Source of the DNA: Mustelus asterias
Taxonomy: Eukaryota
Assembly (NCBI RefSeq): GCF_964213995.1
Contig: NC_135821.1
Location: forward strand, 8,432,001 to 8,496,000
Reading direction: 5' to 3'
Length of the DNA stretch: 64,000 nt
The notes below the pieces were generated by a model. It saw only the letters and a list, made by a program, of their open reading frames with translations. It was not told the DNA's origin and ran no database searches. This document shows positions 7,150 through 36,371 of this stretch, one piece after another; the first letter of the stretch is position 1, and each line of letters begins with the position of its first letter. Made by a program: the position numbers and the translations under genes.

Positions 7150-10100
7150 GGAGTACTGTGTGGGGTTTTGTAGGTTAATGTTGATGGGAAGTGTATGTGG
7201 GGGTTTTGGGGTGTTTATTTGGGGGGAGTTTGGGTGGATGTGGGGTGAGTTATAGGTTTTTTTTCTGGGGGGGGTTATGTTGTGAATTATTTGCGTTGGA
7301 GTGGATCTGGGGGATGTTATGGGGGTTGTTTTGGTGGTGTGTGTTGGGTTATGGGGATGTGGATTATTTGGGGGTGTGCAGGTTATCGGGGGGGGTTATT
7401 TGTGTGAGTGGGGGGGTGTTGTGTTATGGGGGGTTATTTTGGGGGGTGTTGGGTTATGGGGGGTTATTTTGGAGAGGGTGTTGGGTTATGGGGAGTTATT
7501 TTGGGGGGTGTTGGGTTATGGGGGGTTATTTTGGGGAGGGTGTTGGGTTATGGGGAGTTATTTTGGGGAGGGTGTTGGGTTATGGGGGTTATTTTGGGGG
7601 GTGTTGGGTGATGGGGGGTTATTGGGTTACGGGGGGTTATTTTGGGGGGTGCTGGGTTATGGGGGGTTAATTTGTGGAGGGTGTTGGGTTATGGGGAGTT
7701 ATTTTGAGGGGTGTTGGGTTATGGGGGGTCATTTTGGGGAGGGTGTTGGGTTATGGGGAGTTATTTTGGGGAGGGTGTTGGGTTATGGGGGGTTATTTTG
7801 GGGGGTGTTGGGTGATGGGGGGTTATTGGGTTACGGGGGGTTATTTTGGGGGGGTTCGGTTATGGGAGTTATTTTTGGGGGGTGTTGGGTTATGGGGGAT
7901 GTGGATTATTTGGGGGTATGTAGGTTATCGGGGGTGGGGGGCACTTGTGGGGGGTGTTATGGGGGCGTCATGGGGGTATTTGTGGGGAGCGTCATGGGGC
8001 TATTTGTTGGGGGCGTCATGGGGCTATTTGTGGGGGGCGTCATGGGGCTATTTGTGGGGGGCGTCATGGGGCTATTTGTGGGGGGCGTCATGGGGCTATT
8101 TGTGGGGGGCGCATGGGGCTATTTGTGGGGGGCGCATGGGGCTATTTGTGGGGGGCGCATGGGGCTATTTGTGGGGGGCGCATGGGGCTATTTGTGGGGG
8201 GCGCATGGGGCTATTTGTGGGGGGCGCATGGGGCTATTTGTGGGGGGCGCATGGGGCTATTTGTGGGGGGCGCATGGGGCTATTTGTGGGGGGCGCATGG
8301 GGCTATTTGTGGGGGGCGCATGGGGCTATTTGTGGGGGGCGCATGGGGCTATTTGTGGGGGGCGCATGGGGCTATTTGTGGGGGGCGCATGGGGCTATTT
8401 GTGGGGGGCGCATGGGGCTATTTGTGGGGGGCGCATGGGGCTATTTGTGGGGGGCGCATGGGGCTATTTGTGGGGGGCGCATGGGGCTATTTGTGGGGGG
8501 CGCATGGGGCTATTTGTGGGGGCCGTCATGGGGGTATTTGTGGGGGCGTCATGGGGGTATTTGTGGGGCGTCATGGGGGTATTTGTGGGGGCGTCATGGG
8601 GGTATTTGTGGGGGGCGTCATGGGGGTATTTGTGGGGGGCGTCATGGGGGTATTTGTGGGGGGCGTCAAGGGGGTATATGGGGGGGCGTCATGGGGGTAT
8701 TGGGGGGAGGGCGTCATGGGGGTATTTGGGGGGGCGTCATGGGGATATTTGGGGGGGCGTCATGGGGGTATTTGGGGGGGCGTCATGGGGGTATTTGGGG
8801 GGGGCGTCATGGGGGTATTTAGGGGGCGTCATGGGGGTATTTTGGGGGGACGTCATGGGGGTATTTTGGGGGGGGCGTCATGGGGGTATTTTGGGGGGGC
8901 GTCATGGGGGTATTTGGGGGGCGTCATGGGGGTATTTGGGGGGGCGTCATGGGGGTTTTGGGGGGCGTCATGGGGGTTTTGGGGGGGCGTCATGGGGGTT
9001 TTGGGGGGGCGTCATGGGGGTATTTGGGGGGGCGTCATGGGGGTATTTGGGGGGCGTCATGGGGGTATTTGGGGGGGCGTCATGGGGGTATTTGGGGGGC
9101 GTCATGGGGGTATTTGGGGGAGTCATGGGGGTATTTGGGGGGCGTCATGGGGGTATTTGGGGGGCGTCATGGGGGTATTTGGGGGCGTCATGGGGGTATT
9201 TGGGGGGCGTCATGGGGGTATTTGGGGGGCGTCATGGGGGTATTTGGGGGGCGTCATGGGGGTATTTGGGGGGCGTCATGGGGGTATTTGGGGGCGTCAT
9301 GGGGGTATTTGGGGGGCGTCATGGGGGTATTTGGGGGGCGTCATGGAGGTATTTGGGGGGCGTCATGGGGGTATTTGGGGGGCGTCATGGGGGTATTTGG
9401 GGGGCGTCATGGGGGTATTTGGGGGGCGTCATGGGGGTATTTGGGGGGCGTCATGGGGGTATTTGGGGGGCGTCATGGGGGTATTTGGGGGGCGTCATGG
9501 GGGTATTTGGGGGGCGTCATGGGGGTATTTGGGGGGCGTCATGGGGGTATTTGGGGGCGTCATGGGGGTATTTGGGGGGCGTCATGGGGGTATTTGGGGG
9601 CGTCATGGGGGTTATTTGGGGGGCGTCATGGGGGTATTTGGGGGGCGTCATGGGGGTATTTGGGGGGCGTCATGGGGGTATTTGGGGGGCGTCATGGGGG
9701 TATTTGGGGGGCGTCATGGGGGTATTTGGGGGGCGTCATGGGGTATTTGGGGGGCGTCATGGGGGTATTTGGGGGCGTCATGGGGGTATTTGGGGGGCGT
9801 CATGGGGGTATTGGGGGGGCGTCATGGGGGTATTGGGGGGGCGTCATGGGGGTATTGGGGGGGCGTCATGGGGGTATTGGGGGGGCGTCATGGCGGTATT
9901 GGGGGGCGTCATGGCGTATTGGGGGGGCGTCATGGGGTATTGGGGGGGCGTCATGGGGTATTGGGGGGGCGTCATGGGGGTATTGGGGGGGCGTCATGGG
10001 GGTATTGGGGGGGCGTCATGGGGGTATTGGGGGGGCGTCATGGGGGTATTGGGGGGGCGTCATGGGGGTATTGGGGGGGGCGTCATGGGGGTATTGGGGG

Positions 10101-12925
10101 GGCGTCATGGGGGTATTGGGGGGGCGTCATGGGGGTATTGGGGGGGCGTCATGGGGGTATGGTGGGGGGGGCGTCATGGGGGTATTGGGGGGGCGTCATG
10201 GGGGTATTGGGGGGGCGTCATGGGGGTATTGGGGGGGCGTCATGGGGGTATTGGGGGGGCGTCATGGGGGTATTGGGGGGGCGTCATGGGGGTATTGGGG
10301 GGCGTCATGGGGGTATTGGGGGGGCGTCATGGGGGTATTGGGGGGCGTCATGGGGGCATTTGGGGGGGCGTCATGGGGGTATTGGGGGGGCGTCATGGGG
10401 GCATTGGGGGGGCGTCATGGGGGTATTGGGGGGGCGTCATGGGGGTATTGGGGGGGCGTCATGGGGGTATTGGGGGGGCGTCATGGGGGTATTGGGGGGG
10501 CGTCATGGGGGTATTGGGGGGGCGTCATGGGGGTATTGGGGGGGCGTCATGGGGGTATTGGGGGGGCGTCATGGGGGTATTGGGGGGGCGTCATGGGGGT
10601 ATTGGGGGGGCGTCATGGGGGTATTGGGGGGGCGTCATGGGGGTATTGGGGGGGCGTCATGGGGGTATTGGGGGGGCGTCATGGGGGTATTGGGGGGGCG
10701 TCATGGGGGTATTGGGGGGGCGTCATGGGGGTATTGGGGGGGCGTCATGGGGGTATTGGGGGGGCGTCATGGGGGTATTGGGGGGGCGTCATGGGGGTAT
10801 TGGGGGGGCGTCATGGGGGTATTGGGGGGGCGTCATGGGGGTATTGGGGGGGCGTCATGGGGGTATTGGGGGGGCGTCATGGGGGTATTGGGGGGGCGTC
10901 ATGGGGGTATTGGGGGGGCGTCATGGGGGTATTGGGGGGGCGTCATGGGGGTATTGGGGGGGCGTCATGGGGGTATTGGGGGGGCGTCATGGGGGTATTG
11001 GGGGGGCGTCATGGGGGTATTGGGGGGGCGTCATGGGGGTATTGGGGGGGCGTCATGGGGGTATTGGGGGGGCGTCATGGGGGTATTGGGGGGGCGTCAT
11101 GGGGGTATTGGGGGGGCGTCATGGGGGTATTGGGGGGGCGTCATGGGGGTATTGGGGGGGCGTCATGGGGGTATTGGGGGGGCGTCATGGGGGGGCGTCA
11201 TGGGGGTATTGGGGGGGCGTCATGGGGGTATTGGGGGGGCGTCATGGGGGTATTGGGGGGGCGTCATGGGGGTATTGGGGGGGCGTCATGGGGGTATTGG
11301 GGGGGCGTCATGGGGGTATTGGGGGGGCGTCATGGGGGTATTGGGGGGGCGTCGTGGGGGTATTGGGGGGGCGTCGTGGGGGTATTGGGGGGGCGTCGTG
11401 GGGGTATTGGGGGGGCGTCGTGGGGGTATTGGGGGGCGTCGTGGGGGTATTGGGGGGGCGTCGTGGGGGTATTGGGGGGGCGTCGTGGGGGTATTGGGGG
11501 GTGTCGTGGGGGAATTTGGGGGGGCGTCATGGAGTTATTCGGGGGGGCGTCATGGAGGTATTCGGGGGGGTGTCATGGAGGTATTTGGGTGGCGGTCATG
11601 GGGGCATTTGGGGGGGCGTCATGGGGGTATTTGGGGGGGCGTCATGGGGGTATTTGGGGGGTCGTCATGGGGGTATTTGGGGAGTCGTTATGGGGGTATT
11701 TGGGTGGGGTGTCATCGGGGTTTTGGGGGGGCGTCATGGGGGTATTTGGGGGGGCGTCGTGGGGGTATTTGGGGGGCGTCATGGGGGTATTTGGGGGGGT
11801 GTCATGGGGGTATTTGGGGGGGTGTCATGGGGGTATTTGGGGGGGTGTCATGGGGGTATTTGGGGGGGTGTCATGGGGGTATTTGGGGGGTGTCATGGGG
11901 GTATTTGGGGGGTGTCATGGGGGTATTTGGGGGGTGTCATGGGGGTATTTGGGGGGGTCTCATGGGGGTATGTGTCGGGTGTCATGGGGGTATTTGTGGG
12001 GTGTCATGGGGGTATTTGGGGGGTGCTATGGGGGTATTTGGGGGGGTGTTATGGGGGTATGTGTGGGGGTGTTATGGGGGTATTTTTGGGGGGTGTTATG
12101 GGGGTATTTGGGGGGTATGTGTGGGGGTGTTATGGGGGTATGTGTGGGGGTGTTATGGGGGTATTTGGGGGGTGTTATGGGGGCATTTGGGGGGTGTTAT
12201 GGGGGTATGTGGGGGGGTTTATGGGGGTATGTGGGGGGGGTTATGGGGGTATTTGGGGGGAGGTTTTGGGGGTATGTGGGGGGAGGTTATGGGGGTATGT
12301 GGGGGGATGTTATGGGGGTATGTGGGGGGGTGTTATGGGGGTATGGGGGGGGTGTTATGGGGGTATGTGGGGGGGTGTTATGGGGTTATGTGGGGGGGGT
12401 GTTATGGGGGTATGTGTGGGGGTGTTATGGGGTTATTTGTGGGGGTGTTATGGGGGTATTTGGGGGGTGCTATGGGGGTATTTGGGGGGGTGTTATGGGG
12501 GTATGTGTGGGTGTGTTATGGGGGTGTTATGGGGGTATTTTTGGGGGGTGTTATGGGGGTATTTGGGGGGTATGTGTGGGGGTGTTATGGGGGTATTTGT
12601 GGGGGTGTTATGGGGGTATTTGGGGGGTGCTATGGGGGTATTTGGGGGGGTGTTATGGGGGTATGTGTGGGTGTGTTATGGGGGTGTTATGGGGGTATTT
12701 GGGGGGTATGTGTGGGGGTGTTATGGGGGTATGTGTGGGGGTGTTATGGGGGTATTTGGGGGGTGTTATGGGGGGTGTTATGGGGGTATTGGGGGGGTGT
12801 TATGGGGGTATTTGGGGGGTGTTATGGGGGCATTTGGGGGGTGTTATGGGGGCATTTGGGGGGTGTTATGGGGGTATGGGTGGGGGTGTTATGGCGGTTT
12901 GTGTGGGGGTATGTGTTTGTGGGGT
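7150..12925. repeat. G-rich minisatellite, ~21-23-bp units (GGGGGGGCGTCATGGGGGTATT and variants)
   Basis: Direct reading; strong G skew; in intron 1 of the minus-strand gene. Confidence 0.95.
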
Positions 12926-12959
12926 GCCGTGCCCCCTCCCCTCTCTCGCTGCCGCTTAC

Positions 12960-13157
12960 CTGTCCGGCGGCCTCGCTGCTCATGCCGTTCTCCCCCGGGT
13001 TCAGGCTGCCTTCCAGCCGCTGTCTCTTCGCCTCAGCGGCTGCAGGATCTCCCGGCTCGTCCCGCTTCAGCCCCCGCAGCATCCGCTCGGAGTCGGGGCC
13101 GGGACCGGGACCGGGACCGGGGCCGAAGCCGCTGCCGGCCACCGCCTCCGCCGCCAT
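12960..13157 (-). CDS. first coding exon of an unidentified gene (MAAEAVAGSGFGPGPGPGPGPDSERMLRGLKRDEPGDPAAAEAKRQRLEG...)
   Basis: GGCACCATGG Kozak in a CpG island, 66 codons, CAG|GTAAGC donor, NLS-like AKRQRL; downstream exons not identified. Confidence 0.7.
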
Positions 13158-14080
13158 GGTGCCGGCTGCTGAGGGGAGAGGGAACCGGGCAAGCAGCGGG
13201 AATAGGGCCGAGGGAAGCGGCTGCAAACTGTCCGAGGAGCCGGGGAGCAGAGTCTGCAGCGGGAGCGGGACCGACACAACCCGCCAGCGGCGGCGGAGCA
13301 GCGGCGCCAAAATCACCTCAGCGGCGCAGCGGGGAAGAGACGGAAAATGGCCCGGATCGCTCGCGCGCGCGACACCCTCACTGCACGTGCCCGCCAGCCG
13401 CGCGCGACACCCTCACTGCGCGTGCCCGCCAGCCGCGCGCGACACCTTCACTGCGCGTGCCCGCCAGCCGCGCGTGGCTCCACCACTGCGCGTGCCCGCC
13501 AGTCGCGCGCGACATCCTCACTGCGCGTGCCCGCCAACCGCGCGCGTCACCACCACTGCGCGTGCCCGCCAGCCGCGCGCGACACCATCTCTGCGCGTGC
13601 CCCGCCAGTCGCACGCGGCACCCTCACTGTGCGCGCGCCCGAGCCGGCTATCACTCGGGAGGGTTCGGGATCACTCGGGAGGGTTCGGGATCACTCGGGA
13701 GGGATCGGGATCACTCGGGAGGGTTCGAGATCACTCGGGAGGGTTCGGGATCACTCGGGAATGTTCGGGATCACTCGGGAGGGATCGGGATCACTCGGGA
13801 AGGATCGGGATCACTCGGATTGTTTACAAACACCGGGACAAATTGCCGGGAATTTGAGCGCCGCCGCCGCCGCCGCCTCTGAACATTTCGGGGAATAACC
13901 CCGGATATAAACCCCGCCCTCCCTCCCCGGAGCGGCGGAAATCCCGGCGGATCCGCTAACGCCCAAAGTCCCGCTCGGCCCCGCACTCTCAGCGCCGCTG
14001 CGCCCCCCGCGGCCGCAGCGGGAAGAGCAGGAGCGCAGAGGGAGAGGCGGAGACACTGAGTGGGTGATCACGGGCACACA
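13158..14080 (-). promoter_or_regulatory. CpG-island promoter with 35-bp and 20-bp tandem repeats
   Basis: CpG dense; YY1-like AAAATGGC at ~13344; ~35-bp units with TGCGCGTGCC (13365-13640); 20-bp GGGATCACTCGGGAGGGTTC units (13650-13818); GC box and CGGAA near 13913-13941. Confidence 0.7.
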
Positions 14081-14834: not shown

Positions 14835-15143
14835 TCATAGAATCCCTACAGTGCAGGAGGAGGCCATTTGGCCCATCGAGTCTGCACCAACCACAATCCC
14901 ACCCAGTCCCTATCCCCACAACCCCATGCATTTACTCTAGCTAGTCCCTGACACTAAGGGGCAATTTAGCACGGCCAATCCACCTAACCCGCACATTTTT
15001 GGACTGTGGGAGGAAACCGGAGCACCCGGAGGAAACCCACGCAGACATGGGGAGAACGTGCAGACTCCACACAGACAGTGACCCAAGCCAGGATCGAACC
15101 TGGGTCCCTGGCGCTGAGGCAGCAGTGCTAACCACTGTGCCAC
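14835..15143 (-). mobile_element. HE1-like SINE
   Basis: Homologous to other copies. Confidence 0.85.
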
Positions 15144-15654
15144 TATACCGTCACTTCCGACACAGTAATAACTTTCGAGACTAATTTCAGATCGTTTCTT
15201 TTAAAATTGAATCTTATTCCTTTGCGGTTTTGCTGTTTTATATTTTGTCTGTCATTGTTGGGACTGATAGATTCAATTGAAGTTTGGTGATATGAATCCA
15301 CAAATATAACTGGACAAAATGACGATCTCACAGACCCCTAGATTCCATCGCAGTAAGGAGGACAGTGCAGGACTGTTTGGGAATGTAAGAGGTAGTGGAA
15401 CTAAAGACAATATAACTGTACAATACTATCAGAATGTATTTTTGTAAAATGTTATGTTTTACATTGAAACGAGGAGACAAGATGTGGAATGACAGAGTAG
15501 GTGCCCAGAATGAGCTCCGGATGGAGCAGATAGTTACAGGTTGCTTTACAACAACTACTTACATTTATACAGCACCTTTAATGTAATAAAACATCCCAAG
15601 GTGTTTCGCTGGAGCCTAAAGCAAAATTTGTCTCTCAGCTACATAAGGAGATTA

Positions 15655-15990
15655 TAGAATCATAGACTCCCTACAGTGCAGGAGTCCATTCTGCCAGAGT
15701 CTGCACCAACTCTCCGAAGAGCACCGTACCCAGGCCCACACCCCTACCCAGTGCATTTTATTTATTATTGTCACATGCAGACTTACATTAATACTGCAAT
15801 GAAGTTACTGTGAAAATCCCCTATACTCTAATATAGCCAATCCACCTGATCTACACATCTTTGGACACTAAGGGGCAATTTAGCATGGCCAATCCACCAA
15901 ACCCGCACATCTTTGGAGTGTGGGAGGAAACCGGAGCATCCGGAGGAAACCCACGCAGACACAGGAAAACGTGCAGACTCCACACAGACA
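15655..15990 (-). mobile_element. HE1-like SINE(s), 5' truncated/composite
   Basis: Conserved body GGAAACCCACGCAGACAC. Confidence 0.75.
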
Positions 15991-17374
15991 GAGATACTGG
16001 GGGAAATGGTCAAAAGTTTGGTCAGAGGTAGATTTTGAAGGAGGAATAAGCTGGAGTGGTGTAGGGAGGGAATTCCCGAGCTTTGGAGCAAAGCAGCTGA
16101 AGGCACTGCCGCCAATGGTGAGGTCCAAGAAGACAGAATTAGAGGGGCTGAGAAATGTGAGAGCAATGGAGCTGGGGAATCAGAGAAATAGGGAGGGTGT
16201 GTCCATGGAGGGACTTAAAGAAGGATCAGAACTTTTAAATTTATGGATTGCTCAACTGGGAATCAATGGAGGTCAGTGAGTACTCGGTGAGAACGAGGAC
16301 ACAGACGGCAGCGTTCTGGATGACTTCACCTTTATGATGGGTAGAATGTGGGAGGCCAGCCGGGAATATGTGGGAAGATTCAAGTCAGCTTTCCCTCAAT
16401 GCATGGCAAATCTGCAGACAGGAGTAGCCATGTCCTAGAGGGAGATTGTCAGGACAGTCAATCTCTGAGCACTGGCACAAGGCAACATCAGGGGACAGGC
16501 AGTCTTCAGTCACCCATCACTTCTTCAGTCTGTGTAAGCGCAACTGCTTCATTCTCAGATATACTCTTCACAGTTAAAGGAAAGGTGGGGACTTCTGTTG
16601 ACCATCCTGTGTTGGGTGGGAAGGGTGACAAATAAAAACGGGGTCCAAGTCCTTCCCTTCACTGTGTGGGGATCCCTGCCAGAAAGTGCACAGGAGTGAG
16701 TGTTGATAGAGGGCGGAATTGAGTCTTAGCTGTGATACACAACGTAGCTGTGTGTAAACTGAATATCCCCAACACAAAAGGGAAACTTGTGCATGATGTG
16801 GTCAGAATGCTTGTGAAGAGGAGAGGGATGACTCAGGGCAGAATATCCAATCTTTCAGAATGTTTGTGTTTTGCAGCCATATCTCTCAATCAGCAAGATC
16901 GATCACAGTGAGAACATTTATTTTTTTATCTTAAACAATAAAATATTCAACAGTTAGACCTCACCTCCAGCAAAGTCCGATTAAAATGGATTCTGTAACA
17001 CCCTTTCACCTGTGATGTGAGTCGTGACGGTCTCAGTCACTCTACACACGGGAATCAGTCACAGAGCTGGGAAAATCTCCCTGGATCCCAGTGACCAAGA
17101 TCCCCACCTTCCACTCACCACTTCCCCTTCGTCTGTCTCTCTCTCAACTCTCTAATCCCCTCTCTTTCCATCCCCTCCTCCTCTCTTCCAGTCTTCTCCC
17201 CTCCTTTCCTCTCTCCTCCTCTTCTCTCCAACCCCCCTGCCCTACCTCTCTTCCCCTCCCTCTGTCACTGCTCTGCATACACTCTGTTCACGGTAGAGTG
17301 GGTGGGGGGTGGGGACAGTCAGCAGCGCTGGTTAGAAAGGAGGGAGCTGAAACATTTGCAGCTTTAGTTGGCAG

Positions 17375-18071
17375 CTATACATCTACAGCCTCATTCACCA
17401 CCTGCACCTCAAACACGTCAAACTGTGACAGGTAGTCCTCAGTCAAGGTGGAATCTGTGCATCTGTCTCGAAGTCCTCGGCTTCGCGGTCTCAAGATGGA
17501 GGTGATGCGTGCCCGCAGGCGACTCTCACGTTTCCTGCTGGCCCGCAGCTCCTTGCTGACCTTCTCAAAGGCCTCCTTCAGAGCCTCGGCCTTCATCTTC
17601 CAGACCAGCGGGCAGCCTACAGTGTAACTGTGCTCAACAGGAATGTAGGCCCCAGGCTTAGGAGGCGGGCTGGGGATGCGAGCCATGTACAAAGCAATGG
17701 GGATGGGGCCCCTGTCGTTATCCAGCTCCATTTGACAGTCAGCTGAGTGTTCAGTCGGGATGACAGGCTGAGGCGGTGAGATGTCCTTCGAGGTTTCCCC
17801 TGTATTTACAGCTCCCTCAAACTCCACGGGCTGAGAGTTCACTTCAATGAGATAAATAACAGACGGTGGCGTGGTCTCTGGGTCAGACTGGTTTGTGGAG
17901 AGCAGCATATGAGACGATGACGTTTCGTACAAGCAGACACTTTCGCTCACTTTCCCCTGAGGATCAGAGTAACCCAGGACAAAGGCAGCACCATCTAGAG
18001 ATACGCCCGTCCCTGAGCTAGCGTCAGGGTTCCTGAGATCAGCAGCTGGTAGAGATCCGCAATCAAGGAGG
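17375..18071 (-). CDS. THAP7: THAP domain protein 7-like, last coding exon
   Basis: GAYIPVEHSYTVGCPLVWK..KRESRLR resembles the THAP7 C-terminus (EHSY HCF-1-binding motif, coiled coil); CTAACAG acceptor in phase 2. Confidence 0.85.
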
Positions 18072-18489
18072 CTGTTAGACAGACAGAAAGGGAGATTAGC
18101 TGAAGGTAGATAAAGGGAGCAGTTACCCACGGTTTCTCCCCCTGTTCTCGAGCACCCTGGGTCTGTTCCTTTTCACTGCCTCACCCCAGTGACTATTCTC
18201 CAATGCTGGGCTGACAATCACTGTCCATTGGATTTTTAGCCGACAGTGAGTCGGATCGCGACCAATACTGGCACCAGCCTGTGACCAGAAGCCCTGGCTT
18301 GCTTCTCCTTTCTCTGATCCAGTGGCTGTGGAGACTGTTGTCCTCACAGGAAACAGTTATCTCAGCACCAACCAGCTGGTCTCTAAGACCGTGCAGCCGC
18401 TGCCATTCCCACCGAGTCAGTGGGCAGAGCAATAACAGAAATGCCTCAGTTAAGATGCTGATTTTGAATAAAGAAAGCCAAGAGGGATC

Positions 18490-19308
18490 CTCTTGGAATG
18501 AGTGATCACAATACGGTTGAATTTCTAATACAGATGGAGGGTGAGAAAGTAGGGTCCCAAACCAGTGTCCTCTGCTTGAACATGGGGGATTACAATAGGA
18601 TGAGGGCGGAGTTGGCTAATGTAGACTGGGAACACAGACTAATTGGTGGGACAGTTGAGGAACAGTGGAGGATTTTTAAGGAGATTTTTCTCAGTACTCA
18701 GCAAAAATATATTCCAGTGAAAAAGAAGGAATGTAAGAAAAGGGATAGCTAGCCATGGATAACTAAGGAAATAAAGGAGAGTATCAAATTAAAAACCAAT
18801 GCATACAGAGTGGCCAAAATAAGTGGGGAACTAGAAGATTGGGAAGGCTTTAAAAAACAACAAAGAACTACTAAGAAAGCAATAAAGGAAAGATAGATTA
18901 TGAAAGTAAACTAGCACAAAATATAAAAACTGATAGTAAATGTTTTTACAAATATATAAGGAAAAGAGTAGCTAAAGTAAATGTTGGACCCTTAGAAGAT
19001 GAGAAGGGGGATTTAATAATGGGAAACGAGGAAATGGCCGAGGCCTTAAACAAGTTTTTTGTGTCGGTCTTCTCAGTGGAGGACACAAATAGCTTACCGA
19101 AAATTGACGGTCATGGGACTGTAGGGGGTGAGGACCTTAAAACGCTCACTATTACTAAAGAGGTAGTGCTGGGTAGGGTAATGGGACTAAAGGTAGACAA
19201 GTCCCCTGGTCCGGATGGAATGCATCCCAGGGTACTAAAAGAAACGGCAGAAGTAATAGCAAATGCATTTGTTGTAATTTATCAAAATTCACTGGACTCT
19301 GGGGAGGT
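18490..19308 (+). mobile_element. CR1 LINE, 5' part (split by Penelope insertion)
   Basis: SDHNTVEF..., KSPGPDGMHPRVLKE; continues at 22714. Confidence 0.9.
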
Positions 19309-19367
19309 ACAGTAAGAGTTTTAACAACACCAGGTTAAAGTCCAACAGGTTTATTTGGTAGCAAATG

Positions 19368-19404
19368 CCATTAGCTTTCGGAGCGCTGCTCCTTCGTCAG
19401 ATGG
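19368..19404 (-). ncRNA. minimal type I hammerhead ribozyme motif (intact core)
   Basis: Minus: CCAT-CTGACGA-A-GGAGC agc GCTCC-GAAA-GC-TA-ATGG. Confidence 0.7.
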
Positions 19405-21144
19405 AGTGGAAATCTGCTCTCAAACAGGGCACAGAGACACAAAATCAAGTTACAGAATACTGATTAGAATGCGAATCTCTACAGCCAATCAGGTCTTAAA
19501 GATACAGACAATGTGAGTGGAGGGAGCATTAAGCACAGGTTAAAGAGATGTGTATTGTCTCCAGACAGGACAGCCAGTGAGATTCTGCAAGTCCAGGAGG
19601 CAAGCTGTGGGGGTTACTGATAGTGTGACATAAACCCAACATCCCGGTTTAGGCCATCCTCATGTGTGTGGAACTTGGCTATCAGTTTCTGCTCAGCGAC
19701 TCTGCGCTGTCGTGTGTCGTGAAGGCCGCCTTGGAGAACGCTTACCCGAAGATCAGAGGCTGAATGCCCGTGACCGCTGAAGTGCTCCCCCACAGGAAGA
19801 GAACAGTCTTGCCTGGTGATTGTCGAGCGGTGTTCATTCATCCGTTGTCGTAGCGTCTGCATGGTTTCCCCAATGTACCATGCCTCGGGACATCCTTTCC
19901 TGCAGCGTATCAGGTAGACAACGTTGGCCAAGTTGCAAGAGTAGGTACCGTGTACCCGGTAGATGGTGTTCTCACGTGAGATGATGGCATCCGTGTCGAT
20001 GATCCGGCACTTCTTGCAGAGGTTGCTGTGGCAGGCTGTGTGGTGTCGTGGTCACTGTCCCCCTGAAGGCTGGGTAGTTTGCTGCGGACAATGGTCTGTT
20101 TGAGGTTTTGCGGTTGTTTGAAGGCAAGAAGTGGGGGTGTGGGGATGGCCTTGGCGAATGAGGCTGCGGGAGTTCTTACACAAACCCCAAGAGGCCAACA
20201 GCGAACACAATGAGACAGCCAATGAACCGGAACAGCCGACAGAGAGATCCGCAGTGCAACCGAAGAGGAAAGAGTCGAATTGGACTCCTCCGGAAAGCCG
20301 CTGCCCTCGACTTGACATGTATGCCCAAGCCATCAGGAGGTGCGTCAACACCAAATTCATCAGCCGCACTCACAAGACAGCCCCGAACATCACCCAAGCA
20401 CAACGCAACGCCATCCACGCTCTCAAGACCAACCGCAACATTGTCATCAAACCAGCAGACAAAGGAGGGGCCATCATCAATCTGAACAGAACGGATTACT
20501 GCAAAGAAGTGTACCGACAACTGAACAACGAGGAACACTACAGACAGTTACCCACAGATCCGACCAAAGAACACACCCGTCAACTCAACACTCTGATCAA
20601 GACCTTTGATCCGGACCTTCAAAGCACCCTCCGTGCTCTCATCCCCCGTACTCCCCGCGTCGGAGATCTCTATTGCCTCCCGAAGATACACAAGATAAAC
20701 ACACCCGGCCGTCCCATCGTATGGGGCAATGGGACCCTGTGCGAGAACCTCTCCGGCTATGTCGAGGGCATCCTGAAACCCATTGTACAAAGAACCCCCA
20801 GCTTTTGTCGCAACACTTCGAACTTCCTATAAAAACTTAGCACACATGGGGCAGTTGAACCAGGAGCACTCCTCATCACAATGGATGTCTCGGCACTCTA
20901 CACCAGCAACCCCCACGATGATGGCATTGCTGCAGCGGCCTCAGTACTCAACGCTGACAACTGCCAGTTTCCAGATGCAATTTTACAACTCATCCGCTTC
21001 ATCCTGGACCACAATGTCTTCACCTTCAACAACCAGTTCTTCATCCAGACACACGGAACAGCCATGGGGACCAAATTCGCAACATCTTCATGCACAGGTT
21101 CAAACAAGACTTCTTCACCGCACAGGACCTTCAACCGATGCTAT

Positions 21145-21280
21145 AAGCGGTTATTGGATAGGCACATGGAGCACACCAGGATGGTAGGGAGTGGGATAGC
21201 TTGATCTTGGTTTCAGATGAAGGTCGGCACAACATCGTGGGCCGAAGGGCCTGTTCTGTGCTGTAATGTTCTATGTTCTA
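21145..21280 (+). mobile_element. short LINE 3'-tail insertion inside Penelope RT
   Basis: GGGCCGAAGGGCCTGTT...TGTTCTATGTTCTAT tail interrupts the RT just before YIDD. Confidence 0.7.
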
Positions 21281-22713
21281 TACACTAGATACATCGATGA
21301 CATTTTCTTCCTTTGGAGTCATGGTGAACAATCACTGAAACAACTATATGATGACATCAACAAGTTCCATCCCACCATCAGACTCACCATGGACTACTCT
21401 CCGGAATCGGTTGCATTCTTGGACACATGCATCTCCATTAAGGACGGTCACCTCAGCACCTCACTGTACCGCAAGCCCACGGATAACCTCACGATGCTCC
21501 ACTTCTCCAGCTTCCACCCTAAACACGTGAAAGAAGCCATCCCCTACGGACAAGCCCTCCGTATACACAGGATCTGCTCGGATGAGGAGGATCGCAACAG
21601 ACACCTCCAGGCGCTGAAAGATGCCCTCATAAGAACAGGATATGGCGCTCGACTCATCGATTGACAGTTCCGACACGCCACAGCGAAAAACCGCACCGAC
21701 CTCCTCAGAAGACAAACACAGGACACGGTGGACAGAGTACCCTTCGTCGTCCAGTACTTCCCCGGAGCGGAGAAGCTACGGCATCTCCTCCAGAGCCTTC
21801 AACATGTCATTGATGAAGACGAACATCTCGCCAAGGCCATCCCCACACCCCCACTTCTTGCCTTCAAACAACCGCAAAACCTCAAACAGACCATTGTCCG
21901 CAGCAAACTACCCAGCCTTCAGGAGAACAGTGACCACGACACCACACAACCCTGCCACAGCAACCTCTGCAAGAAGTGCCGGATCATCGACACGGATGCC
22001 ATCATCTCACGTGAGAACACCATCTACCGGGTACACGGTACCTACTCTTGCAACTCGGCCAACGTTGTCTACCTGATACGCTGCAGGAAAGGATGTCCCG
22101 AGGCATGGTACATTGGGGAAACCATGCAGACGCTACGACAACGGATGAATGAACACCGCTCGACAATCACCAGGCAAAACTGTTCTCTTCCTGTGGGGGA
22201 GCACTTCAGCGGTCACGGGCATTCAGCCTCTGATCTTCGGGTAAGCGTTCTCCAAGGCGGCCTTCACGACACACGACAGCACAGAGTCGCTGAGCAGAAA
22301 CTGATAGCCAAATTCCGCACACATGAGGATGGCCTAAACCGGGATGTTGGGTTTATGTCACACTATCAGTAACCCCCACAGCTTGCCTCCTGGACTTGCA
22401 GAATCTCACTGGCTGTCCTGTCTGGAGACAATACACATCTCTTTAACCTGTGCTTAATGCTCCCTCCACTCACATTGTCTGTATCTTTAAGACCTGATTG
22501 GCTGTAGAGATTCGCATTCTAATCAGTATTCTGTAACTTGATTTTGTGTCTCTGTGCCCTGTTTGAGAGCAGATTTCCACTCCATCTGACAAAGGAGCAG
22601 CGCTCCGAAAGCTAATGGCATTTGCTACCAAATAAATCTGTTGGACTTTAACCTGGTGTTGTTAAAACTCTTACTGTGTTTGCCCCAGTCCAACGCCGGC
22701 ATCTCCACATCAT

Positions 22714-24205
22714 GACTCTGGGGAGGTGCCAGCTGATTGGAAAACAGCGAATGTAACGCCACTGTTTAAAAAAGGAGGTAGACAAAAGGCAGGTAACTAC
22801 AGGCCGGTTAGCTTAACATCCGTAGTTGGGAAAATGCTGGAATCTATCATTAAGGAAGAAATAGCAGGACACCTGGAAAAGAATGGTTCATTCAAGCAGA
22901 CGCAGCATGGATTCATGAAGGGAAAGTCATGTTTGACTAATTTACTGGAATTTTTTGAGGACATAACGAGTGCGGTTGACAGAGGGGAACCGGTGGATGT
23001 GGTGTATTTAGATTTCCAGAAGGCCTTCGATAAGGTGCCTCACAAAACGTTGCTGCGTAAGATAAAGGTACACGGAGTTGGGGGTAAAGTGTTAGCGTGG
23101 ATTGAGGATTGGCTATCTAATAGAAAGCAGAGAGTCGGAATAAATGGGTGCTTTTCCAGTTGGCAATCAGTGACTAGTGGCGTGCCGCAGCGATCGGTGC
23201 TGGGGCCTCAACTATTTACCATATACATAGACGATCTGGAGGAGGGACCGAGTGCAGGGTAACAAAGTTTGCGGATGACACAAAGATGAGTGGGAAAGCA
23301 AATTGCGTGGAGGACACAGAGAGTCTGCAGAGAGATTTGGATAGGCTAAGTGAGTGGGCAAGGATCTGGCAGATGGAGTATAACGTTGGCAAGTGTGAGG
23401 TTACCCACTTTGGAAGGAATAATAGTAAAATGGACTATTATTTAAATGGTGAAAAATTACAACATGCTACTGTGCAGAGGGACCTGGGGGTCCTTGTGCA
23501 TGAATCACAAAAACTCAGTTTGCAGGTGCAGCAGGTAATCAAGAAGGCAAATGGAATGTTGGCCTTTATCGCGAGAGGGATGGAGTATAAAAGCAGGGAG
23601 GTCATGCTGCAACTGTACAGGGTATTGGTGAGGCCGCACCTAGAGTACTGTGTACAATTTTGGTCCCCTTATTTAAGAAAGGATATATTAGCTTTGGAGG
23701 GGGTACAGAGAAGGTTCACCAGGTTGATTCCGGAGATGAGGAGGTTAGCTTATGAGGAGAGATTGAGTAGACTGGGCCTGTACTCATTGGAGTTTAGAAG
23801 GTTGAGGGGAGATCTTATAGAGGCATATAAGATAATGAAGGGGCTAGACAGGGTAGAAGCAGCGAGGTTATTTCCACTTACAATGGAAACAAGAACTAGG
23901 GGGCATAGCCTCAAAATACGGGGGAGTCAATTTAGAACAGAGTTGAGGAGGAACTTCTTCTCCCAGAGGGTAGTGAATCTTTGGAATTCTCTGCCCAATG
24001 AAGCAGTAGAGGCTACCTCGTTAAATGTGTTTAAGTCACAGATAGATAGATTTTTAACCATTAAGGGAATTAAGGGTTATGGGGAGCGGGCGGGTAAGTG
24101 GAACTGAACCCACTATCCAATCAGCCATGATCTTGTTGAATGGCGGAGCAGGCTTGAGGGGCTAGATGGCCTCCTCCAGCTCCTATTTCTTATAGTTCTC
24201 ATGTT
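22714..24205 (+). mobile_element. CR1 LINE, RT and 3' end
   Basis: [35 protein letters not shown]; frameshift near 23250. Confidence 0.93.
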
Positions 24206-24278
24206 CTTAAACACTTTCCCGCCAGCACAAACTCAGAGAATTGTGCAGTTAAAGTAAACACCAGCAGAGACTTCTCAC

Positions 24279-24401
24279 CATTTGCTGGAGCACGCAACTC
24301 CCATCGTCTTTTCCCTGTTTGCATCACTCTGCGCCATCTTACCCTGGGGAAACGGCTGGAATATTGTGGGGACAGCATCATCTCGCAAACGGTGATAGCC
24401 A
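24279..24401 (-). CDS. THAP7: THAP7-like coding exon 3
   Basis: SGYHRLRDDAVPTIF (THAP AVPTIF box); phase 2-2; alternative internal donor possible near 24342. Confidence 0.8.
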
Positions 24402-24514
24402 CTGCGGGGAAAACACAAGGTAACGAGTGAACCTCGTCCACACATGCACACCCAAAAATTAAACAGAGCTGGCAGACTGGGGGCTTTCGGTAGCCCCCCC
24501 AAGATAGGGGGGCA

Positions 24515-25250
24515 CTGACAGCAGACTGGGGGGGGGGGAGAGAAGGGGGTCTCACAGCAGACTGGTGGGGGGTGGGGACTTACAGCAGACTGGGGGTGGG
24601 GACTTACAGCAGACTGGGGGGGGGGTCTCACAGCAGGGTGGGGGGGTCTCACAGCAGACTGAGGGGGGTCTCACAGCAGACTGAGGGGGGTCTCACAGCA
24701 GACTGAGGGGGGTCTCACAGCAGACTGAGGGGGGTCTCACAGCAGACTGAGGGGGGTCTCACAGCAGACTGAGGGGGGTCTCACAGCAGACTGAGGGGGG
24801 TCTCACAGCAGACTGAGGGGGGTCTCACAGCAGACTGAGGGGGGTCTCACAGCAGACTGAGGGGGGTCTCACAGCAGACTGAGGGGGGTCTCACAGCAGA
24901 CTGAGGGGGGTCTCACAGCAGACTGAGGGGGGTCTCACAGCAGACTGAGGGGGGTCTCACAGCAGACTGAGGGGGGTCTCACAGCAGACTGAGGGGGGTC
25001 TCTCAGCAGACTTGAGGGGGGTCTCACAGCAGACTTGAGGGGGGTCTCACAGCAGACTTGAGGGGGGTCTCACAGCAGACTTGAGGGGGGTCTCACAGCA
25101 GACTTGAGGGGGGTCTCACAGCAGACTTGAGGGGGGTCTCACAGCAGACTTGAGGGGGGTCTCACAGCAGACTTGAGGGGGGTCTCACAGCAGACTGAGG
25201 GGGGTCTCACAGCAGACTGAGGGGGGTGGGGACTCACAGCAGACTAGGTG
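24515..25250. repeat. 22-23-bp minisatellite GAGGGGGGTCTCACAGCAGACT
   Basis: Direct reading. Confidence 0.95.
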
Positions 25251-25279
25251 GGGGGGGGCTCGGAGGGGCTGTGAATTAC

Positions 25280-25435
25280 CTCAGTCCCACAAGCTCGAAG
25301 CACTGTTTCTCGAAATGTTTTGAACAGAAGTAGATGAACTGTGAGGGTGGATTCCAGGGAACTGTCCCATCCGGATTCTTCCGACAACAATTCAACAACC
25401 AGATCTCACGCTGATATCTCCCCTTCTTTGGTAAT
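25280..25435 (-). CDS. THAP7: THAP7-like coding exon 2
   Basis: LPKKGRYQREIWLLNCCRKNPDGTVPWNPPSQFIYFCSKHFEKQCFELVGL; AG/GT flanks, 156 nt. Confidence 0.9.
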
Positions 25436-25699
25436 CTGAACAAAAACAAGGGAATGAAAATAAGATGTGGCCGCAGAGCAAAGCAGAACTGAATTCAGGG
25501 CACAGCGCCCTGCAAACGTGGGGCAGGTTAGCTCGCTATTAGTTCATGGGATTGTTCAGCTGTCTGCCGGAAAGTGGGTCTGACCCATAGTGCCATGGGT
25601 AGGGCAAGGGGGCAGGTCTCTAAGCCACCCTGTGCTGTCAGCACCAATCTTACCCACACCAGCCAAGCGAGCCTCCCCAAGCAGCCAGAGTTGCTGTGG

Positions 25700-26135
25700 C
25701 AACACACACACTGACATAAATACACAATAAACGACAAAAGGTCGTGAATGCAGCCCAATCCATCAAGCAAACCAGCCTCCCATCCATTGACTCTGTCTAC
25801 ACTTCCCGCTGCCTCGGGGAAAGCAACCAGCATAATTAAGGACTCCGCGCACCCCGGACATTCTCTCTTCCACCTTCTTCCTTCGGGAAAAAGATACAAA
25901 AGTCTGAGGTCACGTACCAACCGACTCAAGAACAGCTTCTTCCCTGCTGCTGTCAGACTTTTGAATGGACCTACCTCGCATTAAGTTGATCTTTCTCTAC
26001 ACCCTAGCTATGACTGTAACACTACATTCTGCACTCTCTCCTTTCCTTCTCTCTGAACGGTATGCTTTGTCTGTATAGCGCGCAAGAAATAATACTTTTC
26101 ACTGTATACTGATACATGTGACAATAATAAATAAA
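25700..26135 (+). mobile_element. Rex1/Babar-like LINE 3' end
   Basis: IIKDSAHPGHSLFHLLPSGKRYKSL..RLKNSFFP; same tail again at 28042-28182. Confidence 0.7.
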
Positions 26136-26489
26136 ATCAGCATATTTTTGTATTCTGGTGCATGAATAGTGATGGCGGAGGCTCAGGTTTTCATCGGGAT
26201 CAGGAATCTCACCCACAATTACAGCCTGCCATTGGTGTGTGCAAGAAGCATCGAGACTCATACTCAGCCCACTCAAGAGGGCAGTTATCCTGAGTTGGAG
26301 GGGTGGGGGGCAATATGCCTCAGCTGGGTGGCAGCTGGGGGAATGGGGAGGGGGCAATATGCCTCAGCTGGGGAGGGTGGGGATGGGGGGGGGGGTCAAT
26401 ATGCCTCAGCTGGGGGGGGGTGGGGGGTGGGGATTGGGGGGGGGGGCAATATGCCTCAGCTGGGGGGGAAGGGGGTTATGATCGCTGAC

Positions 26490-26569
26490 CTGTGAAACGT
26501 GACTCCATTGATTCTCGAATCCTTCGTGTCCCTTGATCTGCAGCCTTCGGCTGAGCAGTGTCGAGGCAT
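26490..26569 (-). CDS. THAP7: THAP7-like coding exon 1
   Basis: [27 protein letters not shown]; CAG|GTCAGC donor; acceptor just upstream implies a 5' UTR exon. Confidence 0.9.
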
Positions 26570-26699
26570 CGTTCGAACCCCCCGAGGCTGCAAGAGGATG
26601 CATTGCCCTTTCAGACATAATTTCTCTCATTCTGCCAATCATCCCCCCCATCGCTACAGTTCACTGCCATCATTTGCGTCAAGCTAAAGTGCCACAGCT

Positions 26700-29600
26700 G
26701 ACAGCCCCGACAAATCCCCCCCCCCCCTACTCTGTGCACTTATCCCATCTCCCGCAACCCTCACCATCAGCTCCCCTTCCCTTCTTTCACCCCGCACCCC
26801 CACTCTTCTCTCCCACTTTCTCCACTCCATCCCCAATTTCCATACTCTTTGCACCTCTCTCCCCGCTCCGCAGCCCACTTCTCCATTCTTCACACCTTCC
26901 TCCCCTTCTCGCTCCACCCCCCTCTTTCTCACCACCACTTTTCTCCGCCTCCCTCCATTCCCCCCTTTGTCTCTTCCCTTCCCCACCATTCAGTCTCCAC
27001 TTTCTCTCTCCCCACCCCCCAGTATTTCTCCCTTTTCCTGGGTGCCTCCTCCCACCCTCCTCCCCACCTGCTCTCCTTCCTCTTCCCACACCTCACAACC
27101 CCGCCCCATCACCTTTCCCCATCACAGACCCCCTTCTCTGAACCCTCTCCCCCCCAGACTCCCTCCTCCCCTTACCCTGACTCGCCCCACCCCTCTCCCC
27201 CTCCCCCCCCCACAAACTCCCTCCTACCCCTCCCCCTGAATCCCTGCCCACCCCTCCCCCCCAGACTCCCCCTCTCCCCGCCCACCCCTCTCCCACCACA
27301 CTCCGACCACCCACCCCTCTCCCCCCCCACCCCCCCCACCCACCCACCCCTCTCCCCCCCACAAACTCCCTCCTACCCCTCCCCCTGAATCCCTGCCCAC
27401 CCCTCCTCCCCAGACTCCCCCTCTCCCCGCCCACCCCTCTCCCACCACACTCCGACCACCCACCCCTCTCCCCCCCCACACTCCCCGCCCACCCACCCAC
27501 CCCTCTCCCCCCCCACACTCCCCGCCCACCCACCCATCCCTCTCCCCCCCACACTCCCCGCCCACCCACCCACCCCTCTCCCCCCACACTCCCCGCCCAC
27601 CCACCCCTCTACCCCCCACACTCCCCGCCCACCTACCCACCCCTCTCCCCCCCACACTCCCCGCCCACCCCTCTCCCCCCCACACTCCCCGCCCACCCAC
27701 CCACCCACCCCTCTCCCCCCACACTCCCCACCCCTCTCCCCCCACACTCCCCGACCACCCACCCCTCTCCCCCCCGCACCCACCCACCCCTCTCCCCCCC
27801 ACACTCCCCGACCACCCACCCCTCTCCCCCCTACACTCCCCGACCACCCACCCACTCCGACCACCCGCCCCTCTCCCCCCCACACTCCCCGACCACCCGC
27901 CCCTCTCCCCCCACACTCCCCGACCACCCGCCCCTCTCCCCCCACACTCCCCGACCACCCGCCCCTCTCCCCCCACACTCCCCGACCACCCGCCCTCTCC
28001 CCCCACACTCCCCGACCACCCACCCCTCTCCCTGACCACCCTATAACTGCTACAGCTCTAACTGTAACACGACATTCTGCACTCTCTCGTTTCCTTCTCT
28101 GTGAACGGTATGCTTTGTCTGTATAGCGCGCAAGAGACAAGACTTTTCACTGTATACTGATACAGGTGACAATAATAAATCAAGTCACCCAAGACTCCCA
28201 CCTGACCCCTCCCCCACAACCCACCCCTCCCGACTCCCCCTCCACGGACATCCATCCCCCCTTTCTCTGACCTCCCACCCTCCACTTCTCTGACCTCCCC
28301 CCACCACCCCACTTCTCTGACCCCCCCACACCCCCCTGTTCTCTGACCCCCCCCACACCCCCTCTTCTCTGACCCCCCCACACCCCCCTCTTCTCTGACC
28401 CCCCCACCCCCCTTCTCTGACCTCCCACCCCCCTCTTCTCTGACCCCCCACACCCCCCTCTCTCTGACCCCCCACACCCCCCTCTTCTCTGACCCCCCCA
28501 CCCCCCCTTCTCTGACCTCCCACCCCCCTCTTCTCTGATCCCCCACACCCCCCCTCTTTTCTGACCCCCCCACACTTCCATTCTCTGACCCCCACACCTC
28601 CCTGTTCTCTGACCCCCCACCCCGACCTCCCATCCCCCACTTCTGACCCCCCACCCTCCCTTCTCTGACCCCACCACAACCCGTTCTGACCCCCCTGTTC
28701 TCTGACCCCCCCCCACACCCCCCTGTTCTGACCCCCACACACCCTCTTCTCTGACACCCCCCACCCCCTCTTCTCTGAACCCCCCCACCCCTCCTCTTCT
28801 CTGACCCCCTCCGTCTGACCCGCACCACCCTCCCTCTTCTCACCCCCCAACCCCCTCTCTTCTCTGACCCCCCCACCTCACCTCTGACCCCCCCCGACAC
28901 ACCTCCCCACTAAACCCCCCCCCCACACACCTCCCCTCTGACCCCCCTCCCCACGACACCCCCTCCCCCCGACACCCCCTCCCCTCGACACCCCCTCCCC
29001 CCGACACCCCCTCCCCCCGACACCCCCTCCCCTCTGAACCCCCCTTCCTTCCCCTCCCCTCTGACCCCCCTTCCCCTGACCCCCCCTTCCCCTGACCCCC
29101 CTGCTTTTCCCGAGCCCCCCCTCCATTTCCCGACTCCTCCCCCACTTTTCCCCTGACCCCTCCCCCCTTTTCCCCGACCCTCCCTTTTCCCCTGATCCCC
29201 CCTTTTCCCCAGACCCCCCCTTTTCCCCTGACCCCCCTTTCTCGAGCCCCCCCTTGTCCCGAGCCCCCCCTTTTCCCATGACCTCCCCCTTTCCCCTGAC
29301 CCCCCCACCCCTTTCCCCTGCCCCCCCCACCCCTTTCCCCTGCCCCCCCCACCCCTTTCCCCTGACCCCCCCACCCCTTTCCCCTGACCCCCCCACCCCT
29401 TTCCCCTGACCCCCCTCCTTTTCCCGAGCCCCCCCTCCATTTCCCGACCCCTCCCCCACTTTTCCCCTGACCCCTCCCCCACTTTTCCCCTGACCCCTCC
29501 CCCCTTTTCCCGACACCCCCCCTTTTCCCGACACCCCCCCTGCCCCCCTTTTCCCCTGACCCCCCCCGACCCCCCCCTTTTCCCCTGACCCCCCCTTTCC

Positions 29601-31295: not shown

Positions 31296-31299
31296 CCTC

Positions 31300-31900
31300 G
31301 ACTCACTCTGTCGCTGTGACCTCACTAAAATGGCCGCCAGATCATCCCTGACTTTTACGTCATCGCGCAACAACGGAAGGTTGTATTGTCCGGGAGTCTC
31401 TCTCGCTGCTCCTGCTGGGGTCAGTCTCTGCTCAATCCGGCTTTACTCTGATAGATTTTAATTTAATCCCTTTCATTTTCCGCGGCCGCACCGACACTGG
31501 GGCCGCCGAGTTGTTCCGTCGCTGCCCGAGCCCGCGCATGCGCAAACTCTCCGGCGGCGGACGCCGCGGCGCGCTGACGTTATCGGGGACGCTGGCGGTG
31601 ATGCAGTGACGCATGGGGCACGCTGGTGTTGACGCATTGACGCATGGGGCACGTTTACGGTGACGCAGTGACGCATGGGGCACGCAGCCCCGCCCCGCCC
31701 GCCGGACACAGACAAGAGGTTAGTGGCGCCTCAGGGAAGCTGGCACCGCCATTGGGAGGCCCGACCCGACCCCGCAGCGACTGCCAGCCCCTCGCGGCAC
31801 CGGCAAACCACACCGCGATGGGCTAGCAGGGAATCGGCGGAGCGTCCGTTCTGCGGGTCAGGGGTCACTGGCCCTGGTCTGGAGCCGCTTGTGATTGGCT
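31300..31900. promoter_or_regulatory. bidirectional CpG-island promoter THAP7/ZBTB45
   Basis: YY1-like AAAATGGCCGCC ~31327, NRF1-like GCGCATGCGC ~31534, many TGACGCA/TGACGT; outward-facing donors GTGAGT (minus, 31301-31306) and AG|GTTAGT (plus, ~31719). Confidence 0.75.
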
Positions 31901-31934
31901 CGCTGCAGGCATGTGACGGAAAGGACCCCCTCCC

Positions 31935-32450: not shown

Positions 32451-32679
32451 CCAGTGCATCTGCTGGATAAGCCCAGTGACTCCTGCTCAAGGTGTCAATG
32501 TTGGTGGGAAGAGAAGCAGCAGCTCCTCTCCCAGTCTGTGCTGGGGGTGGGTGAACAAGGCAGGAAGGCCGCAGCTTACACAGGTGGCTGTTCTTCACCT
32601 GGCAGCTCGAACTTTGAGCTTTTGCCATCAGTTTGTGGAGAGGATCGTGCCAGTCGCACTCCTCACCTGCAAGCATTTG

Positions 32680-36215: not shown

Positions 36216-36371
36216 GTGGGTTCATCGTGAATCTCCCGCTGAAATAATTCTCACTGTTTCCTGTAGCTCATATTTTTCCCCATGTACAAAATCCTGGATA
36301 AGTGACAGAGAACAAATGCGTTCCCCTTTCTGCTTCACTGGTCATTTCCTTTCAGTTTTCTCCACCCTCCA

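What the first reader, a model, noticed from the sequence alone, without database searches (positions are those of the whole stretch)
19368..19404. Intact minimal hammerhead ribozyme in sense within the THAP7 pre-mRNA; its twin is core-mutated
Seen: the inverted Penelope arm reads, on the minus (THAP7 sense) strand, CCAU-CUGACGA-stem II-GAAA-GC-UA-AUGG. That is a type I hammerhead with a 1-bp helix III inside a palindromic AGCU. The otherwise near-identical plus copy (22582-22618) has CUGACAA, i.e. G8A. Established: Penelope-like elements carry minimal hammerheads that are thought to cleave as dimers. Inference: a self-cleaving site in THAP7 intron 3 could cut nascent transcript or affect splicing.
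Basis: partly seen in the sequence, partly recalled or inferred. Interest (0 to 1): 0.7.

Follow-up and report, generated by a model that had tools for sequence, protein, structure and literature searches.

The report
Masked Penelope hammerhead in THAP7 intron
This is a real copy of a tiny hammerhead RNA motif carried by a very common shark jumping gene (thousands of identical copies in the genome); in the THAP7 transcript it is predicted to be zipped shut by its own mirror-image twin, so it likely neither cuts nor regulates the gene.

Summary
In detail: an intact minimal type I hammerhead reads on the minus strand at 19404-19368, sense to THAP7 intron 3, and its twin at 22582-22618 has G8A. 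It is the ordinary terminal-repeat motif of a Neptune-like Penelope element, with 8,740 exact copies in this genome. G8A is a common CpG transition (635 copies). A role in THAP7 processing is unlikely. The pre-mRNA holds no second sense hammerhead for a dimer. It transcribes the twin's antisense first, and folding pairs all 37 nt into an ~850-bp duplex; forcing the hammerhead fold costs 67 kcal/mol. Published monomers of this class did not cleave, and slow intronic hammerheads did not stop splicing. Contigs from three runs stop at exon 3's splice sites, and one joins exon 3 to exon 4. A small test gave about 2-fold more copies starting at the cut base than at one control base: a weak hint that the family cuts in its own RNA. 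The scan noted this family before: 120 notes in this genome mention hammerheads, and the 8 shown concern these motifs. Verdict: new member of a known kind, low interest.

The parts
19368..19404 (-). Intact minimal type I hammerhead; predicted cut between 19372 and 19371
   Evidence: 8,740 exact genome copies
22582..22618 (+). Twin hammerhead with G8A at 22591 (CpG transition); its antisense is in the THAP7 pre-mRNA
   Evidence: 635 exact genome copies
19309..20157 (-). Inverted, 5'-truncated arm of the Penelope-like element (end of GIY-YIG region plus terminal repeat, no tail)
   Evidence: GIY-YIG E=1.8e-4, just under Pfam cut-off
20158..22713 (+). 5'-truncated, broken Neptune-like element: RT region with stops and frameshift, C-x4-C-x2-C linker, GIY-YIG, terminal repeat, tail at 22678-22713
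   Evidence: Translations, Pfam GIY-YIG E=2.8e-4, under cut-off; linker and architecture as in PMC8557442 passages
19295..19308 (+). Left 14-bp target-site duplication
22714..22727 (+). Right 14-bp target-site duplication
   Evidence: two other insertions use the same site
18500..24210 (+). Host LINE fragment split by the insertion (ends approximate; CR1-type label is recalled); reading frame continues across the duplication
   Evidence: Pfam RVT_1 E=8.6e-23; frames
21145..21281 (+). Later ~137-nt insert in the element's RT region, flanked by CTAT; looks like a LINE 3' tail (recalled)
18072..24278 (-). THAP7 intron 3 (6,207 nt)
   Evidence: Splice sites, tblastn, contig ends
17375..26569 (-). 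THAP7 coding exons 26569-26490, 25435-25280, 24401-24279, 18071-17375

Best explanation
The motif is the standard terminal-repeat hammerhead of a Neptune-like Penelope retroelement that landed in THAP7 intron 3, and in the THAP7 pre-mRNA it is likely a silent passenger, predicted to be locked in a long duplex with its own inverted twin. Shown: a head-to-head insertion with a 14-bp target duplication inside an older LINE fragment; such an insertion puts one hammerhead on each strand, so one is sense to any host gene. Shown: G8A sits at a CpG and is private to one arm here. Inferred: it arose after insertion by CpG deamination. Predicted: polymerase makes the antisense of the plus arm first (22677 to 21828), then after a 1.67-kb loop the sense arm, which zips into an ~850-bp duplex starting about 750 nt before the hammerhead emerges; G8A leaves a G-U wobble and does not weaken it. 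Inferred from published relatives: the motif needs a second copy (AGCU/AGCU helix III) and perhaps the element's protein, neither supplied in cis here. The intron would then be spliced out normally.
For: 8,740 exact copies, one per ~420 kb. Core-breaking CpG changes accumulate freely: G8A 635, G12A 871, beside C7U 1,166, C11.1U 811, loop II 955 and 692. An inverted hammerhead-bearing twin lies within 1.5 kb in 14 of 29 and 11 of 30 fetched loci. Among 40 fetched G8A copies, 9 of 9 with a twin inside the 837-nt fetch had G8 intact in the twin. One full descriptor hit on the minus strand of the window. Hammerhead fold -10.9 against duplex -74.6 kcal/mol; in the 3.4-kb nascent segment all 37 nt pair with 22582-22618 and forcing helices I and II costs 67 kcal/mol. 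One X1 contig carries exon 3 (record 474-598) directly followed by exon 4 (598-1326); X15 and X2 contigs also stop at exon 3's ends. PMC4209133: monomer no detectable cleavage, dimers low. PMC11167929: cleavage only with the element's protein, no RNA-seq ends at the site. PMC2995048: introns cut by a slower hammerhead were still spliced.
Against: Folding is equilibrium modelling; proteins or editing could keep the arms apart in the cell. In local folds without the twin, helices I and II reach 0.78-0.87 probability with 20 or 100 nt of flank, though 0.0-0.3 with 50 or 200 nt. The structure covaries across related families, and copies start at the cut base about twice as often as at one control base, so the family's motif may be active. 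In the 100 listed G8A rows, 5 inverted pairs within 1 kb share G8A (counted by eye), so not every G8A arose in one arm after insertion. Intron cleavage can lower expression (CPEB3).
Confidence: 0.85

Rival explanations
1. The sense hammerhead cuts a share of nascent THAP7 pre-mRNA (trans-dimer with another family RNA, or helped by the element's protein) and lowers or tunes THAP7 output, like the CPEB3 intronic ribozyme.
For: Core and helices intact; thousands of identical copies could supply trans partners; protein-assisted cleavage shown for an Anolis element; CPEB3 precedent.
Against: 67 kcal/mol penalty; no cis partner; modelled dimer -19.1 against -19.2 for two monomers; only 1,299 nt to the 3' splice site, about 20 s at the mammalian rate quoted, against a 2-3 min half-life and 9,931 nt for CPEB3; exon tethering; no sign of locus-specific conservation.
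Confidence: 0.05
2. The inverted arm's terminal repeat starts its own leftward RNA, which lacks the antisense arm, so the hammerhead folds and may be cut in that RNA. This would be element biology, at most yielding an exon-4-only transcript.
For: Terminal repeats of these elements typically hold promoters (PMC6765202 passages); local fold without the twin is often the hammerhead; weak excess of copies starting at the cut base.
Against: No start-site data; CpG decay suggests the copies are methylated; still a monomer; contigs cannot show starts or ends.
Confidence: 0.08
3. The motif only resembles a hammerhead and never cleaves in any context.
For: No Rfam hit; helix III cannot form in the monomer; 8 of 9 Xenopus dimer elements did not cleave; core mutants did not impair insertion in vitro.
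Against: Core kept and helices covary across 8 motifs from several families: 91.7% paired, U-A to C-G in helix I, G-C to A-U in helix II, 0 of 500 shuffles (related sequences inflate this).
Confidence: 0.25

Closest known systems
Minimal hammerheads (min-HHR) in the terminal repeats of metazoan Penelope-like elements (Cervera and De la Pena 2014, PMC4209133; parts 1-2 of 4 and a term search read)
   Same: Type I, 4-bp helix I, extra nucleotide between 9 and 10.1, G10.1-C11.1, palindromic 15.2-16.2, thousands of mostly single genomic copies, opposite-strand pairs
   Different: Helix II is 5 bp, shorter than the 7-8 bp described for Schistosoma; the main text names no shark (supplements not read)
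Neptune clade of EN+ Penelope-like elements (PMC8557442, passages)
   Same: RT then CX2-5CxxC linker then GIY-YIG; inverted 5'-truncated copy at the 5' end; tail at one end only
   Different: This copy is truncated and broken; Neptune versus Nematis was not separated by a tree
Anolis Poseidon hammerhead (PMC11167929, parts 1-2 of 4)
   Same: Minimal motif in the terminal repeat with C3-G8 core
   Different: That one was assayed (protein-assisted, dispensable for insertion in vitro); different clade
Domesticated intronic ribozymes: RECK-type hammerheads (PMC6155905, passages) and CPEB3 (PMC10274809, passages)
   Same: Sense orientation in an intron
   Different: Those are conserved across species and, for CPEB3, measured to cleave; this is one of thousands of young repeat copies with its antisense in the same transcript

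Membership tests
Minimal type I hammerhead of Penelope-like elements | Core CUGANGA, GAAA, U16.1-H17 | tested here: met
   CUGACGA, GAAA, U-A17
Minimal type I hammerhead of Penelope-like elements | Helices I and II, extra base after A9, G10.1-C11.1 | tested here: met
   features
Minimal type I hammerhead of Penelope-like elements | Vestigial helix III with palindromic 15.2-16.2 | tested here: met
   AGCU, invariant in the 8 aligned motifs
Minimal type I hammerhead of Penelope-like elements | Lies in the terminal repeat of a Penelope-like element | tested here: met
   About 210 nt after the GIY-YIG frame's stop
Minimal type I hammerhead of Penelope-like elements | Self-cleaves as dimer or with protein help | not testable with these tools
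   Only a weak genomic hint
Rfam hammerhead families | Covariance-model match | tested here: not met
   No hit at E<=10 over 15000-27000
Neptune clade | CX2-5CxxC linker between RT and C-terminal GIY-YIG | tested here: met
   CHSNLCKKC before the GIY-YIG match; shared with Nematis
Neptune clade | RT phylogeny | not tested
   No tree built
Domesticated intronic ribozyme | Conserved at the orthologous intron across species | tested here: inconclusive
   No related genomes held; contigs over the repeat cannot be assigned to the locus
Domesticated intronic ribozyme | Can fold and cleave as a single motif in the host transcript | tested here: not met
   By prediction only: no helix III, no cis partner, 67 kcal/mol penalty
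Non-LTR retrozyme | Non-coding tandem units each with a hammerhead | tested here: not met
   Single inverted pair with RT and endonuclease remnants

The most novel reading that the evidence does not exclude
The family's hammerhead cuts in living cells, and the head-to-head architecture makes insertions self-neutralising: every such intronic copy has one sense ribozyme but also its own antisense mask. Unmasked sense copies would cut host pre-mRNAs and be purged, making this genome's tens of thousands of copies a natural test of whether Penelope hammerheads work in vivo.
Probability: 0.12. Interest if true: 0.55.

Novelty: new member of a known kind. Interest (0 to 1): 0.14.

Why it matters
As a THAP7 feature it matters little: it is one of 8,740 identical copies and is predicted to be masked. 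If it did cut, it would show a young transposon ribozyme acting on a host pre-mRNA, the step proposed for domesticated intronic hammerheads. The family is more useful than the locus: its copy number allows orientation and truncation tests of whether Penelope hammerheads cleave in vivo, which the papers read here leave open.

Tried and rejected
1) Rfam scan: no hammerhead hit. 2) Selection on the core in source elements, suggested by C7U 1,166 against G8A 635 and loop II 955 against 692: not supported. In 40 plus 40 fetched copies the two groups carry the same linked variants and similar divergence (3.4% and 3.0% non-CpG), and CpGs outside the motif show strand asymmetries as large (0:10, 1:8, 21:10; total 52:61). 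The 40 C7U copies came from the first 46 listed rows; I skipped 6 rows with a close neighbour, among them one pair sharing C7U. The 40 G8A copies came from the first 42 rows; I skipped 2, each the second member of a pair sharing G8A. The twin tallies therefore understate shared changes. 3) A possible extra exon at 18460-18185: no support; P0001 needs four exons. 4) First cut-site count (828 matches) was swamped by a sister subfamily with U17 and was redone with a narrower pattern. 5) One search used a mis-registered structure and was replaced. 6) No RNA holder on record; all laid runs were contigs, so no ends, strand or level; exon 4 had almost no cover in X15, X16 and X18. 7) Polymorphism of the insertion could not be read from contigs. 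8) Lunse et al. 2017 is not held; known only through a review's passages. 9) Searches 'THAP7'+'ribozyme' gave 0 papers; 'hammerhead ribozyme'+'shark'+'Penelope' gave 1, where shark refers to the name. Supplements of PMC4209133 and the bioRxiv preprint were not seen and may list cartilaginous-fish motifs; the preprint does include one chondrichthyan. That G8A inactivates is inferred from the C3-G8 pair (G8C data); a search for G8A data gave nothing direct.

Full report
Observation. The minus strand at 19404-19368 reads CCAU-CUGACGA-A-GGAGC-AGC-GCUCC-GAAA-GC-U-A|AUGG. This is a type I hammerhead with a 4-bp helix I, a 5-bp helix II, one extra A after A9, and a vestigial helix III inside palindromic AGCU. 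The predicted cut is between 19372 and 19371. The plus-strand twin at 22582-22618 differs only by G8A at 22591. A full descriptor hits once in the window and never in 200 resamples. Rfam has no matching model at E<=10.

Host gene. Exon 2 is identical to P0001, named THAP7 by its source, and the other top hits are shark and ray THAP7 proteins. Four coding exons on the minus strand account for P0001. Intron 3 runs 24278-18072. The motif is in sense, 4,906 nt after the donor and 1,299 nt before the acceptor.

The element. An ~850-nt inverted arm (19309-20157) sits head to head with a 5'-truncated plus-strand body (20158-22713); the arms differ in 11 of 850 columns. In the main 727-nt segment 4 of 7 differences are at CpG, including G8A. 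The body has RT remnants with stops, a C-x4-C-x2-C linker and a GIY-YIG match just under Pfam's cut-off. A tail lies at one end only, and a 14-bp duplication flanks the whole, inside a LINE fragment whose frame continues across it. This is the architecture described for Neptune-type elements (PMC8557442 passages); no tree was built.

How common. The exact 37-mer occurs 8,740 times in the genome, the reversed control 0 times. Single CpG transitions give G8A 635, C7U 1,166, C11.1U 811, G12A 871, loop II 955 and 692. A sister subfamily with U17 adds most of 26,828 further matches (27 of 30 loci continue as hammerheads). An inverted twin lies within 1.5 kb in 14 of 29 and 11 of 30 loci. A head-to-head insertion puts one hammerhead in sense to any host gene, so the orientation is expected. 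In Xenopus about 43% of related retrozyme copies are intronic (preprint passages). Of 40 fetched G8A copies, 9 had a twin in view and all 9 twins kept G8, so one intact and one mutated arm is the usual picture. Against this, 5 inverted pairs among the 100 listed G8A rows share the change (by eye), which points to some arm homogenisation or copying of core-dead templates. Skipped rows are listed under Tried and rejected.

Is the fold real? Across 8 motifs from the window and fetched loci the core is kept, apart from the G8A twin, and 91.7% of helix cells pair, with double changes in both helices (0 of 500 shuffles, but the rows are related). The apparent excess of tolerated over damaging CpG changes was not supported as selection. 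Following a lead from earlier scan notes, I counted copies that begin at the cut base. Of 317 matches, 11 of 30 loci do not continue upstream (one is an internal deletion), about 106-116 copies. At a control base 5 nt upstream, 6 of 30 comparable loci among 254 matches do so (one deletion), about 42-51. That is about 2 to 2.5-fold, from one control and small samples: a weak hint only.

Mechanism at this locus. Transcription of THAP7 makes the antisense of the plus arm first and the sense arm after a 1.67-kb loop. The hammerhead fold is worth -10.9 kcal/mol and its duplex with the twin's antisense -74.6. In the folded 3.4-kb nascent segment all 37 nt pair with 22582-22618, and forcing helices I and II costs 67 kcal/mol. 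G8A yields a G-U wobble there. No second sense hammerhead lies in the pre-mRNA, and a modelled dimer gains nothing over two monomers. These are predictions. Without the twin, local folds form the helices at 0.78-0.87 for two flank sizes and 0.0-0.3 for two others.

Literature. A Schistosoma minimal motif showed no cleavage alone and low cleavage as dimer or trimer (PMC4209133, parts 1-2). The Anolis motif cut only with the element's protein, was dispensable for insertion in vitro, and left no RNA-seq ends (PMC11167929, parts 1-2). One of nine Xenopus dimers cleaved. Introns cut by a slower hammerhead were still spliced, whereas a fast ribozyme blocked splicing (PMC2995048 passages). CPEB3 shows that an intronic ribozyme can matter, with a 2-3 min half-life and 9,931 nt to the next exon (PMC10274809 passages). 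No paper held has both THAP7 and ribozyme.

Transcript evidence. Only contigs were available. One X1 contig, from a relative, carries exon 3 directly followed by exon 4. An X15 contig (a run that holds all sampled exon 4 words, kind unrecorded) matches exon 3 without differences and stops at its ends; X2 does likewise. This fits normal splicing but cannot show ends, level or a minor cut fraction.

Verdict. A real minimal hammerhead of a known kind, new only as a shark instance. Silent passenger 0.85; effect on THAP7 0.05; own RNA from the arm 0.08. Interest 0.14. The scan has 120 notes on hammerheads in this genome, and the 8 shown concern these Penelope motifs; my scores rest on the calls above.

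Noticed in passing
window 62616-62660 (+): Second minimal hammerhead of another Penelope family (CUGAAGA core, C-G at the base of helix I, C17), about 85-nt scrap, opposite in strand to a nearby GFO/IDH/MocA oxidoreductase exon at 61978-62358.
   Followed up: partly
window 19293-19308 and 22714-22731; L171, L173: Two other, structurally different insertions (108 and 270 nt, one from another subfamily) use the same nucleotide of the host LINE with the same 14-bp duplication; the empty site reads TG, 16 nt, CA.
   Followed up: partly
G000:C4:98883969-98884217 (-): Three same-strand matches spaced 111 nt apart: a tandem of the terminal repeat that could be a natural dimer or trimer substrate.
   Followed up: no
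Listings: Both arms of one insertion share G8A, C7U or G12A in about 4-5 pairs per 100 rows (by eye): arm-to-arm conversion or copying of core-dead RNA.
   Followed up: no
window 19371-19351 (-): The predicted 3' cleavage product begins with AUG and a six-codon frame (MAFATK-stop); the element's tail also ends in ATG at the right junction.
   Followed up: no
window 21145-21281 (+): A later ~137-nt insert interrupts the element's RT region: three nested layers in one intron.
   Followed up: partly
L024:1716-1760 (+), L039:569-613 (-): A further hammerhead-like family with GAAAC-A/G-U-U instead of GAAAGCU.
   Followed up: no
window 34583-36247 (+) and 48384-50759 (+): BTB plus C2H2 zinc-finger gene exon; 791-aa LINE endonuclease-RT frame.
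   Followed up: no
window 7286-13882, 24545-25227, 27198-33000, 36372-38968: Long G/C-skewed minisatellites explain the very long open frames; one 22-bp array fills THAP7 intron 2.
   Followed up: partly
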